Below are positions 5,213 through 6,334 of a stretch of DNA of 64,000 bases, piece by piece. The position numbers were made by a program, and so were the translations under genes. Position 1 is the stretch's first letter, and each line of letters begins with the position of its first letter. The notes under the pieces are model-generated. The model made no database searches. It saw only the letters and a program-made list of their open reading frames with translations, and had not been told where the DNA came from. The stretch comes from Chlamydiota bacterium (lineage in GTDB: Bacteria; Chlamydiota; Chlamydiia; Chlamydiales; JAAKFR01), in the NCBI GenBank assembly GCA_013288105.1, contig JABDCM010000001.1:55659-119658 (forward strand), in the 5' to 3' direction.

Positions 5213-6334
5213 ATGGGGACCTTTATCAACCTGAGTTTTGGGTTTTTCTTCCTCAAATTCAGGAAGTTTACTTGCATCTCTTGTGCTTTTCTGACTCGTA
5301 AAGGGCCTTTGGCCATTTACTTCGTCAAAAAATCCCAAGATCTGCGGTGTAAACTTCTCCGACTTCGAGGAAGACAACCCAAAACTCAGGTTACCAAATT
5401 CTTTTTCCTTCTTTTTCTTTCGTGTCTCCCTATCCAGCCTAGCTTAAAAGCAGCAACTTATAGTCCAGTGAGCGGAAAATGGTCCCCAGATAAGTATGCA
5501 GCAACTCTGCCGGCAGCGGATCATTATACTCGGGGCTATCAATCATTATCAGAAAAAGAGTGGGACTCTGCTCTCACAGATTTCATGGTGATTGCTTATG
5601 GCTTCCAAGATTCCCCCTTCTATACAGATGCTCTCTACTATTCGGGCATCTGTTACTATTTTATGGGGGATCTGGATTTAGCGAATAAGCAATTTTCGAA
5701 ATACCTTCTTGTAAGCGGAAAATTGAAGTATTTTGAAAAAATTTTCGAGTTTAAATACCACATCGCTGAACATCTCAGGACAGGAAAGATAACCCATCTT
5801 TTTGGTCGTGCGGACTTCCCCAAACTATTTCCTAATAAAAAAAGTGCGATTCCTATTTATGATGAGATTATAGCCGCTCTTCCCGGTAAAGAAATTGCGA
5901 TTCAATCTCTTTATAGAAAAGGGGAGACGCTGTTGGTCGTCAAAGAATATAAAGAGAGTATTGAGGCCCTTCAACTTCTCACACGTCGTTTCCCAACCCA
6001 TCAATTGGCCGCTGATGCTTATCTAGTAATCTCCAAGATTTATATTAAACAGACGGAATTGGAACCGCAAAATCCAGACTTTCTGGCTTTAGCGAAGGTG
6101 AATCTTCAACGTTTTCATAAACATTTTCCTGGGGATGAGAGAAGGGGGTTAATGGAGAAAAATATTGCTGATATGCAAGAAATGATCGCGGCGGGGTTGT
6201 ACGATACAGGCCGTTTTTATGAAAGAAAGAAAAAGTTAGGAGCCTCTAAGGTTTATTATCAAGATACCATTCGTAAGTATCCTGAAACTGTGGCTGCGGA
6301 AAAAAGTCTTCACCGTTTAAAAGAGATTACGTGA
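5213..6334 (+). CDS. BamD/YfiO-like TPR outer-membrane lipoprotein; the ORF reads through MITE copy A
   Basis: A GGAG sequence lies 8 nt before ATG 5213. Lipobox LFLSC follows just after the element. TPR-like segments YYSGICYYFMGDLDLANKQF and AADAYLVISKIY. No canonical start codon between the element and the lipobox. Confidence 0.7.
   Translation: MGTFINLSFGFFFLKFRKFTCISCAFLTRKGPLAIYFVKKSQDLRCKLLRLRGRQPKTQVTKFFFLLFLSCLPIQPSLKAATYSPVSGKWSPDKYAATLPAADHYTRGYQSLSEKEWDSALTDFMVIAYGFQDSPFYTDALYYSGICYYFMGDLDLANKQFSKYLLVSGKLKYFEKIFEFKYHIAEHLRTGKITHLFGRADFPKLFPNKKSAIPIYDEIIAALPGKEIAIQSLYRKGETLLVVKEYKESIEALQLLTRRFPTHQLAADAYLVISKIYIKQTELEPQNPDFLALAKVNLQRFHKHFPGDERRGLMEKNIADMQEMIAAGLYDTGRFYERKKKLGASKVYYQDTIRKYPETVAAEKSLHRLKEIT
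5228..5392 (+). mobile_element. MITE-like element, long form (165 bp including flanking A/T), copy A
   Basis: Perfect 17-bp terminal inverted repeats AACCTGAGTTTTGGGTT / AACCCAAAACTCAGGTT. Near-identical to 47838-48002. Flanked by CA / TA. Confidence 0.85.

What the first reader, a model, noticed from the sequence alone, without database searches (positions are those of the whole stretch)
5228..5392. MITE-like repeat family with 17-bp terminal inverted repeats and TA flanks (4 full and 2 partial copies in 64 kb)
Seen: full copies lie at 5228-5392 and 47838-48002 (165 bp) and at 11094-11190 and 42144-42240 (97 bp). The short form equals the long form minus an internal 68 bp bounded by CTGAC/CCGAC-T(T)CG. 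Truncated ends are at 30671-30702 and 35820-35837. Termini are AACCTGAGTTTTGGGTT / AACCCAAAACTCAGGTT, and the pairing extends imperfectly to about 30 bp. If the element proper is taken as ACCTGAG...CTCAGGT, the flanking dinucleotides are CA/TA, TA/TT, TA/TA and TA/TA. Known: TA target-site duplication is the hallmark of IS630/Tc1-mariner transposition. Inference: this is a non-autonomous element mobilised in trans by an IS630-like transposase that is not in this window. The copy density (about 1 per 10 kb) suggests a large family.
Basis: partly seen in the sequence, partly recalled or inferred. Interest (0 to 1): 0.6.

Follow-up and report, generated by a model that had tools for sequence, protein, structure and literature searches.

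The report
Chlamydial hairpin MITE of IS982 family
The repeat is a real miniature transposon found across environmental chlamydiae, but it is moved by an IS982-type (ISPasp2-like) transposase that duplicates 5 bases at TAWTA sites, not by an IS630/mariner enzyme; it appears undescribed in the literature searched but is of an ordinary kind.

Summary
The window has two 163-bp copies, two 95-bp deletion derivatives and two truncated ends of one repeat with invariant termini ACCTGAGTTTTGGGTT.

The IS630/TA interpretation fails. In 120 non-redundant complete copies (window, chlamydial MAGs, metagenomes) the flanks form a 5-bp direct repeat. It is perfect in 74, against 11 when flanks are permuted. 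The target consensus is Y|TAWTA|R. The apparent TA/TA flanks are just the two ends of that near-palindromic target.

The autonomous partner was found. It is a 1.0-kb insertion sequence with the same 17-bp termini and the same 5-bp duplications, encoding an IS982-family transposase (NF033520, 237 bits). NCBI names the Protochlamydia amoebophila copies ISPasp2. No copy lies in the window.

The MITE shares only its termini with the IS. Its whole body is an ~74-bp-stem hairpin kept by compensatory changes across 35 sequence clusters.

Two paralogous empty sites show precise insertion. Both long window copies are in-frame 56-codon insertions in signal-peptide regions (bamD and a PF26330 protein).

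Verdict: a new member of a known kind, of moderate interest.

The parts
5229..5391 (+). Full-length MITE copy (163 bp). Flanking 5-mers are TATCA (5224-5228) and TACCA (5392-5396), a 4/5 match. It lies in frame inside the 5' end of bamD.
   Evidence: frame and protein context
47839..48001 (+). Full-length MITE copy (163 bp) with a perfect 5-bp duplication, TATTA (47834-47838) / TATTA (48002-48006). It lies in frame inside the 5' end of ORF 47811-48689.
   Evidence: protein context
11095..11189 (+). 95-bp deletion derivative lacking the internal 68 bp. It has a perfect duplication TTTTA/TTTTA and fills the spacer between the convergent genes bipA-like (9257-11086) and rsmB/F-like (11192-12310, minus strand).
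42145..42239 (+). 95-bp deletion derivative with the same 68-bp deletion. Flanks are TATTA / TATAT (3/5). The stop codon TAA of ORF 40892-42145 is made of the last two target bases plus the first base of the element.
30671..30701 (-). Truncated copy: 31 nt of one terminus, 10 nt after the stop codon of ORF 30233-30661, the last ORF in the run of short + strand ORFs at 18398-30661.
   Evidence: (I7, I8)
35821..35837 (+). Truncated copy: 17 nt of one terminus. It overlaps the stop codon of the minus-strand mitochondrial-carrier-family gene 35836-36639.
   Evidence: (D7)
5213..6334 (+). bamD-like gene (373 aa). Its signal-peptide region carries the 56-codon insertion (163-bp element plus 5-bp duplication). 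Orthologues are about 310-320 aa and start with a short signal peptide, MRxxxLFLS...
47811..48689 (+). PF26330-family secreted-protein gene (292 aa) carrying the same 56-codon insertion after codon 9. Homologues are about 225-250 aa, and their residues 3-8 align to query residues 61-68.
   Evidence: (P0107)

Best explanation
[quoted passage not shown] It is mobilised in trans by the DDE transposase of an IS982-family insertion sequence of the ISPasp2 type.

The transposase recognises the 16-17-bp termini ACCTGAGTTTTGGGTT(Y), which are the only sequence shared between MITE and IS. It inserts the element at a near-palindromic AT-rich target, Y|TAWTA|R, with a 5-bp staggered cut. Repair of that cut gives the 5-bp (occasionally 6-bp) duplication.

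The MITE has no transposase gene. Its body is a single long hairpin-forming palindrome, but about 28 bp of each end suffice for movement, because 57-95-bp deletion derivatives have their own duplications.

Insertions survive mainly just downstream of stop codons. They also survive where reading frame 1 of the element is open and 163+5 = 168 bp keeps the host frame. That is the case for both long copies in this window, which lengthen the signal-peptide n-regions of BamD and of a PF26330 protein.

Shown: structure, duplication, target, shared termini with a bona fide IS982-family IS, precise filled and empty sites. Inferred: that this transposase is the enzyme that moves the MITE, and whether the window's copies are still mobile.
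For: A 5-bp direct repeat is perfect in 74/120 copies and matches at 4 or 5 positions in 91/120. Permuted controls give 11.3, with a maximum of 22.

Target logo: T .97, A .80, W .87, T .78, A .96, with Y at -1 and R at +1.

Autonomous elements carry identical termini. L214 6162-7162 is 1001 bp. Two P. amoebophila UWE25 copies are 1023 bp, with duplications TAAGA/TAAGA and TAATA/TAATA. L330 is 1023 bp with TAATT/TAATT.

The transposase matches NF033520 (IS982 family) at 237 bits against a cutoff of 130, and PF13612 at E=7e-73. NCBI names the UWE25 protein 'IS982-like element ISPasp2 family transposase'.

IS and MITE sit side by side on one contig and share 19 nt of the left terminus and 17 nt of the right.

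There are two paralogous empty sites with precise insertion: L060 versus L040, and L178 versus L185.

Deletion derivatives of 57, 58, 80 and 95 bp have perfect duplications.

Near-identical copies lie at different sites within single samples; cluster 26 has 15 members and cluster 17 has 9.

No transposase for the element is in the window.
Against: No experiment shows this transposase moving the MITE.

Only one full IS copy was seen in the roughly 1.4 Mb of DNA fetched around MITE-pattern matches. The IS was not shown to exist in the genome the window comes from.

The MITE interior has no detectable similarity to the IS subterminal regions, so derivation from this IS by internal deletion is not shown.

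Two of the four window copies have decayed duplications (4/5 and 3/5), so they may be old and immobile.

Both collection scans required exact termini, so the invariance of the termini is partly built into the sample.
Confidence: 0.9

Rival explanations
1. One reading: a MITE mobilised by an IS630/Tc1-mariner transposase that duplicates the dinucleotide TA.
For: Many copies do have TA immediately outside both ends, because the preferred target is TA-W-TA.
Against: TA/TA matching is no better than with permuted flanks (70 versus 67.6 of 120), whereas the 5-bp repeat is 74 versus 11.3. Duplications such as TATGA, TATCA, TAGCA, TGTTA, TAAAC, TATAG and CAGTA do not put TA at both junctions. The empty sites contain a single TATTC or TTAAAA, not a TA-only site. 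The IS with these termini is of the IS982 family.
Confidence: 0.02
2. The element is primarily a structured RNA or DNA hairpin selected for a host function, such as a terminator, an RNase III target or an mRNA stabiliser. On this reading its dispersal is secondary.
For: The whole-length hairpin is kept by compensatory changes: 78.5% of cells are paired against 64.9% shuffled, 57 of 74 pairs show double changes, and the covariation score is 0.327 against 0.126. Arm complementarity is 0.73 within elements, while clusters are only 0.54 alike. Mean MFE is -82.6 kcal/mol with z = -13.7. There is a strand asymmetry: A.C mismatches number 433 and G.T 217, and one strand folds better in 33 of 35 clusters. 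Copies are enriched just after stop codons.
Against: Orientation relative to neighbouring genes is random (48 versus 50 after 3' ends; 10 versus 13 in tandem gene pairs). No Rfam family reaches its threshold. Deletion derivatives without the hairpin core still spread. Target duplications, empty sites and a cognate IS explain the dispersal without any host function.
Confidence: 0.06
3. A Tn3-family-derived miniature element (TIME or IMU type), the best-known class of bacterial MITE with 5-bp AT-rich duplications.
For: There is a 5-bp duplication at AT-rich sites.
Against: The termini are 16-17 bp starting ACC. From general knowledge of the family, Tn3-type termini are about 38 bp and start GGGG. 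The matching autonomous element is a 1-kb single-ORF IS982-family IS.
Confidence: 0.01
4. A palindrome-associated element moved as single-stranded DNA by an IS200/IS605 or REP/RAYT-type HUH enzyme.
For: The whole element is a long hairpin with a strand asymmetry.
Against: From general knowledge of those families, such elements make no target duplication and have no terminal inverted repeats. Here duplications are consistent and a DDE-type IS shares the ends.
Confidence: 0.01

Closest known systems
ISPasp2-like IS982-family insertion sequences of Parachlamydiaceae (e.g. Candidatus Protochlamydia amoebophila UWE25, BX908798.2)
   Same: They share the same 16-17-bp termini (ACCTGARYTTTGGGTT), the same 5-bp duplication, and TA-rich targets (TAAGA, TAATA, TAATT).
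   Different: The IS is 1001-1023 bp and encodes a 286-293-aa DDE transposase. Its two ends are complementary for only about 17 bp. The MITE is 163 bp, non-coding for a transposase, palindromic throughout, and unrelated in its interior.
MITECca01 / ISCca4 of Cardinium (PMC9769881)
   Same: It is a MITE carrying the inverted repeats of an IS982-family IS in an obligate intracellular symbiont, proposed to be maintained by intact parental IS copies.
   Different: Its host phylum is Bacteroidota. It is about 240 bp and is described as lineage-specific and visibly derived from its IS. The chlamydial element is 163 bp, occurs in many chlamydial MAGs with various family-level labels as 35 or more sequence clusters, and has a hairpin core with no trace of the IS. 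Sequence relatedness between the two was not tested here.
Rickettsia palindromic elements (RPE; Ogata et al. 2000, as summarised in PMC10969869)
   Same: They are palindromic repeats of about 150 bp in an obligate intracellular bacterium that insert in frame into protein-coding genes and add a peptide segment.
   Different: To my knowledge (not tested here), RPEs have no clear target duplication and no known transposase. Here only 3 of 111 copies read through into long ORFs, and all three sit in N-terminal signal-peptide regions. No sequence comparison with RPEs was made.
Correia elements of Neisseria and ERIC/YPAL repeats of enterobacteria
   Same: They are MITE-like repeats of 100-170 bp that fold into long hairpins and sit in intergenic regions, often at gene ends.
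   Different: They differ in termini, and to my knowledge Correia elements duplicate TA. They have documented RNA-level effects (RNase III or RNase E processing, promoters) that are untested here.

Membership tests
Bacterial MITE | Short (under about 500 bp) with no transposase gene | tested here: met
   Complete copies are mostly 154-176 bp (111 of 120), with deletion derivatives of 49-112 bp and three longer variants of 186-539 bp. The open frames encode only 55 aa with no family match, and tblastn with the IS982 transposase is negative.
Bacterial MITE | Terminal inverted repeats | tested here: met
   There are 16-17-bp perfect termini. The collection scans selected for them, but the window copies were found independently.
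Bacterial MITE | Target-site duplication of fixed length | tested here: met
   The 5-bp repeat is perfect in 74/120 against 11.3 permuted. The signal is absent at repeat lengths of 3, 4, 8 and 9. A 6-bp repeat occurs in 6 copies.
Bacterial MITE | Dispersed, multi-copy, with near-identical copies at unrelated sites | tested here: met
   There are 6 sites in 64 kb. Single MAGs contribute 3-6 loci even in a truncated scan. Clusters hold up to 15 near-identical copies.
Bacterial MITE | Termini shared with an autonomous IS able to supply transposase | tested here: met
   L214, UWE25 and L330 ISs have the same termini and the same duplication length.
Bacterial MITE | Insertion polymorphism (filled versus empty site) | tested here: met
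   There are two paralogous empty sites with a single copy of the duplicated bases. At protein level, orthologues of BamD and of the PF26330 protein lack the 56-aa segment. No strain-level orthologous empty site was available.
IS982 family (as the mobilising family) | Transposase matching the IS982 family model above its curated cutoff | tested here: met
   NF033520 scores 237 bits against a cutoff of 130, E=2.3e-70. IS5, IS4 and IS1182 models fall far below their cutoffs.
IS982 family (as the mobilising family) | About 1 kb with a single ORF, ends beginning AC, and a duplication of 3-9 bp (ISfinder description, recalled from memory) | tested here: met
   The ISs are 1001-1023 bp with one ORF of 286-293 aa, ends ACC..., and 5-bp duplications.
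IS982 family (as the mobilising family) | Transposase shown to bind and move the MITE | not testable with these tools
   This needs a mobilisation assay.
IS630 / Tc1-mariner-derived MITE | TA target-site duplication | tested here: not met
   At k=2, 70/120 copies match against 67.6 permuted. The real repeat is 5 bp, and many duplications do not begin or end in TA.
IS630 / Tc1-mariner-derived MITE | IS630-family transposase on an element with the same inverted repeats | tested here: not met
   The only autonomous elements with these termini encode IS982-family transposases.
Tn3-derived miniature elements (TIME) | Termini of about 38 bp beginning GGGG | tested here: not met
   The termini are 16-17 bp beginning ACC.
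Any Rfam RNA family | Match at or above the family's gathering score | tested here: not met
   There is no match at the six sites in gathering mode. In E-value mode only plant MIR821 (42 bits against 249) and MIR7504 (28 against 83) appear, which are generic long-hairpin hits.

The most novel reading that the evidence does not exclude
The hairpin core may not be a passive passenger. Its 74-bp stem is kept by compensatory evolution across 35 or more clusters that have otherwise diverged almost to noise. Mismatches are twice as often A.C as G.T on one defined strand. This would mean that one specific strand must fold as single-stranded DNA or RNA. That could be a step in IS982-family transposition that nobody has characterised, or an element-encoded RNA. 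In addition, the in-frame copies would act as tolerated or functional N-terminal modules of secreted and outer-membrane proteins, comparable to Rickettsia palindromic elements.
Probability: 0.15. Interest if true: 0.55.

Novelty: new member of a known kind. Interest (0 to 1): 0.35.

Why it matters
The finding assigns a cognate IS (IS982 family, ISPasp2 type), a target rule (Y|TAWTA|R) and a 5-bp duplication to a repeat found in many environmental chlamydial MAGs and metagenome contigs. I found no description of this repeat in the literature searched.

Practically, the element breaks short-read assemblies. For example, the Logan contig L117 ends at the copy at 11095.

It also inflates gene calls. 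BamD is deposited as 373 aa, including 56 element-encoded residues. The element creates or moves stop codons as well.

Biologically, it is another case of in-frame palindromic insertions in an obligate intracellular lineage. It is also a clean data set, with 35 clusters and whole-length covariation, for asking why MITE hairpins are conserved. None of this overturns current understanding.

Tried and rejected
1. I looked for an autonomous element among the first 116 genome loci. TIR pairs 600-5000 bp apart with matching flanks gave nothing real. L054 940-4497 encodes no recognisable transposase (ORF translations read by eye). ORFs next to solo termini read by eye as housekeeping-type proteins, not transposases. 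The partner was found only after listing solo termini in the metagenome loci, because its flanks differ at one base.

2. The scan of viral contigs with the terminus returned only single matches, as expected from chance.

3. The plasmid hit on pPNK first looked like an IS5-family partner. It is in fact the right end of a truncated IS982 copy that had inserted into an IS5-family transposase gene and was itself cut by an IS3 element.

4. I tested for similarity between the MITE interior and the IS subterminal regions, to see whether the MITE is an internal-deletion or fold-back derivative. The result was at background level.

5. Orientation bias relative to flanking genes, as a test of RNA-level function, was absent.

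6. Attempts to retrieve the source contig or close strains by exact-protein look-up failed for three of four proteins. The nearest BamD orthologue is only 58% identical, so no orthologous DNA-level empty site could be obtained for the window copies.

7. Four literature searches for a chlamydial MITE or the terminus sequence found nothing.

8. The marginal profile hit at 14925-15044 (E=0.012) and the 3-mismatch hit at 14492-14508 lie inside genes. I treat them as chance.

Full report
**1. The observation**

- Two 165-bp copies lie at 5228-5392 and 47838-48002 and are 96% identical.
- Two 97-bp copies lie at 11094-11190 and 42144-42240 and are 95% identical.
- Truncated termini lie at 30671-30702 and 35820-35837.

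The 17-mer terminus has 11 hits with up to 3 mismatches, against 0.29 expected from shuffles. A profile HMM built later from 111 copies finds only these six places in the window.

The short form is the long form minus exactly 68 bp, between two GACT microhomologies. Pairing is not limited to about 30 bp. The whole 163-bp element folds into one hairpin of 66 pairs.

**2. Context**

The window is chlamydial.
- It carries a DUF687 protein.
- Its BamD homologues are annotated as Chlamydiales.
- It has an rRNA operon without spacer tRNAs.

**3. Distribution**

Even so, it returned complete copies of 160-170 bp in many MAGs labelled Chlamydiae, Chlamydiales, Chlamydiia and Parachlamydiaceae, plus one labelled Verrucomicrobiae. 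A solo terminus (no partner within 650 bp) turned up in a MAG labelled Rhabdochlamydiaceae (L082).

A metagenome scan requiring both termini 120-150 nt apart returned 97 more loci. Together with the window this gave 120 non-redundant complete copies. The closest relatives of the window's copies are 88% identical, in MAG JAGRNW01.

**4. Target-site duplication**

I took the boundaries as ACCTGAG...CTCAGGT and compared the bases outside the two ends.

| Repeat length tested | Perfect matches (of 120) | Permuted-flank control |
|---|---|---|
| 2 bp | 70 | 67.6 |
| 3 bp | 1 | 5.5 |
| 4 bp | 0 | 0.7 |
| 5 bp | 74 | 11.3 (max 22) |
| 6 bp | 6 | 0.1 |

- At 5 bp, 91 of 120 copies match at 4 or 5 positions.
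- Duplicated pentamers include TATTA (19), TAATA (19), TTATA (6), TACTA, TAGTA, TATGA, TATCA, TAGCA and TGTTA.
- TAAAC, TATAG, TAAAT, CAGTA and GAATA show that the A and T outside ACC...GGT are target bases, not part of the element.

The reconstructed target is Y|T(.97)A(.80)W(.87)T(.78)A(.96)|R, a 7-bp near-palindrome. This fails the defining feature of IS630/Tc1-mariner.

**5. The autonomous partner**

No paired termini 0.6-5 kb apart with identical flanks were found at first. Listing solo termini in the metagenome loci then exposed L214 6162-7162.
- It is 1001 bp with termini ACCTGAGTTTTGGGTTCGAA... and ...TTGAACCCAAAACTCAGGT.
- Its flanks are TATTA and TAATA.
- It directly abuts a MITE copy that has its own TATTA/TATTA duplication.
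- Its single ORF matches NCBIfam NF033520 'IS982 family transposase' (237 bits, cutoff 130) and PF13612.

Homologues include proteins that NCBI names 'IS982-like element ISPasp2 family transposase [Candidatus Protochlamydia amoebophila]'. I fetched their DNA.
- Two 1023-bp copies in UWE25 (BX908798.2) have termini ACCTGAACTTTGGGTTT / ACCTGAATTTTGGGTTT and perfect duplications TAAGA and TAATA.
- Another 1023-bp copy (L330) has termini ACCTGAGTTTTGAGTTC and the duplication TAATT.

So the IS has the MITE's termini, its duplication length and its kind of target.

The plasmid pPNK hit is the right end of a truncated copy of this IS. It lies inside an IS5-family gene. The window itself has no IS982-family coding sequence.

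**6. Evidence of insertion**

Two paralogous empty sites were found.
- L060 reads ...GACTTAAAA[MITE]TTAAAATGCAC. L040, in the same MAG, reads ...GACTTAAAAAGCAC. This is a 6-bp duplication and explains a subfamily whose flanks fit 6 bp.
- L178 reads ...GGCGCTATTA[MITE]TATTAATGAGC. L185 reads ...GGCGCTATTCATGAGC. Here the target is the apex of another MITE copy, so this is a nested insertion.

Deletion derivatives of 57, 58, 80 and 95 bp have perfect duplications of their own. About 28 bp of each end is therefore enough to move.

**7. The hairpin core**

The 111 copies of 154-176 bp fall into 35 clusters at 75% identity, with mean pairwise identity 0.56. I then excluded the termini and the apex.
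- The two arms of one element are 0.73 complementary.
- Arms of different clusters are only 0.52-0.54 alike, which is near the noise of the aligner.

I tested a 74-pair structure on a 91-sequence alignment.

| Measure | Observed | Shuffled |
|---|---|---|
| Cells forming standard pairs | 78.5% | 64.9% (0/500 reach observed) |
| Pairs with changes on both sides | 57 of 74 | 48.3 |
| Covariation score | 0.327 | 0.126 |

Slid registers give a covariation score of at most 0.171. The caveats are that the sequences are related and that the structure was derived from them.

The IS ends are complementary for only about 17 bp, and the MITE interior is not detectably related to them. The MITE therefore shares only the transposase-binding termini with the IS, and its core evolves as a hairpin.

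Why the hairpin is kept is not settled. Three possibilities remain:
- selection on a folded single strand;
- help in bringing the ends of a very short element together;
- repair-driven homogenisation of the arms.

One oddity is that one strand, defined by sequence similarity, folds better as RNA in 33 of 35 clusters. A.C mismatches outnumber G.T by 433 to 217. Yet orientation relative to neighbouring genes is random, at 48:50.

**8. Where copies sit**

- Copies lie after 3' ends 98 times and before 5' ends 53 times.
- They lie in convergent spacers 26 times and in divergent spacers 7 times.
- The median distance from a stop codon is 28.5 nt.
- Of 74 reconstructed targets, 63 contain a stop triplet within the duplication ±2 bases.

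In the window, the copy at 11095 fills the spacer between two convergent genes. The copy at 42145 supplies the last base of the stop codon of ORF 40892-42145.

**9. In-frame copies**

Both long window copies lie in the same open frame inside the 5' ends of + strand genes, since 163 + 5 = 168 bp = 56 codons.

The bamD-like gene reads MGTFI[56 aa]TKFFFLLFLSC.... No start codon lies between the element and the hydrophobic core. Orthologues of about 310-320 aa begin MRxxxLFLS....

ORF 47811-48689 reads MQESLRYRI[56 aa]IIQFLIISLWVMSSAQG.... Its homologues are about 225-250 aa, and their residues 3-8 align to query residues 61-68.

A third case, L175, with 172 + 5 = 177 bp, also precedes a hydrophobic segment.

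It is not known whether these proteins are made with a 56-residue basic extension of the signal peptide or from an internal start. A conserved in-frame TTG lies 33 codons into the element.

**10. Comparison and novelty**

The kind is known. IS982-derived MITEs have been described in Cardinium (PMC9769881). In-frame palindromic insertions are classic in Rickettsia (summarised in PMC10969869). NCBI's protein naming treats ISPasp2 as a named IS.

I found no description of this chlamydial MITE. A search for the terminus string gave 0 papers, three topic searches gave nothing relevant, and a 2024 review of prokaryotic MITEs does not mention Chlamydiae. No Rfam family fits.

I therefore rate it a new member of a known kind.

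Noticed in passing
window 57930-62260: The 23S rRNA gene spans 4331 bp against a 2925-nt model. It contains two LAGLIDADG endonuclease ORFs (60083-60592 at E=2.6e-27; 61340-61759 at E=1.5e-5). Each overlaps a sub-threshold group I intron match (59888-60561 at 40.7 bits; 61626-61895 at 23.6 bits; gathering score 50). 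The gene therefore probably carries two group I introns.
   Followed up: partly
window 32470-34877: tRNA-Leu(UAA) lies at 32470-32554, and its 3' 55 nt is repeated at 34824-34877 (91-100% identical). The repeats bracket a roughly 2.3-kb islet with an alpha/beta-hydrolase gene (32582-33712, minus strand) and a fused Gp49/HigB-like plus HTH_37 gene (33904-34713, minus strand). This looks like a small integrated element that has no integrase.
   Followed up: partly
window 2590-3670: The 1-kb spacer between two convergent genes is a large palindrome. Its 279-nt arms (2651-2929 and 3217-3495) are 99% complementary and are built from 58-62-bp tandem units. They surround two exact 128-bp tandem copies (2923-3178). 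This structure is unrelated to the MITE, and its nature is unknown. An assembly fold-back artefact is not excluded.
   Followed up: no
window 35836-36639 (minus strand): This gene has a mitochondrial-carrier-family domain (PF00153, E=4e-16) in a chlamydial genome. Its stop codon overlaps the truncated MITE terminus at 35821-35837.
   Followed up: no
alignment A2 of 91 MITE copies (loci L004-L214 and window): The hairpin has a strand asymmetry. The strand complementary to the one shown for the window copies folds more stably as RNA in 33 of 35 clusters. A.C/C.A mismatches number 433 against 217 G.T/T.G. Yet element orientation relative to flanking genes is random. This is unexplained.
   Followed up: partly
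L178 251-416 versus L185 4716-4826: One MITE copy is inserted into the apex (TATTC/TATTA) of another MITE copy. The element's own loop region is therefore a target, and nested copies occur. L093 and L150 also show a 49-bp mini-copy nested at the end of a larger one.
   Followed up: partly
L327 (pPNK, NZ_LN879503.1 89600-91560): On the Protochlamydia naegleriophila megaplasmid there is a stack of nested insertion sequences. An IS5-family transposase gene is cut at codon 170 of the annotated CDS by the right end of an IS982/ISPasp2-like element. Only about 200 bp of that element remains, because an IS3-family element inserted into it.
   Followed up: yes
L095 5065-5230 (CAVOSF010000007.1): A complete 166-bp copy, from a cluster with 9 members, lies on a 644-kb contig of a MAG labelled Verrucomicrobiae. 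This is either a binning or labelling error or presence of the family outside Chlamydiae, within the PVC group.
   Followed up: no
L117 (Logan SRR8433710 contig, 3259 bp): A short-read contig identical to window 9257-11086 ends 8 nt after the bipA-like stop codon, exactly at the MITE copy at 11095. The element therefore breaks short-read assemblies.
   Followed up: no
window 5222-5398: In E-value mode, Rfam gives sub-threshold matches to the plant microRNA precursor families MIR821 (42 bits against 249) and MIR7504. These are generic long-hairpin resemblances and do not indicate membership.
   Followed up: yes
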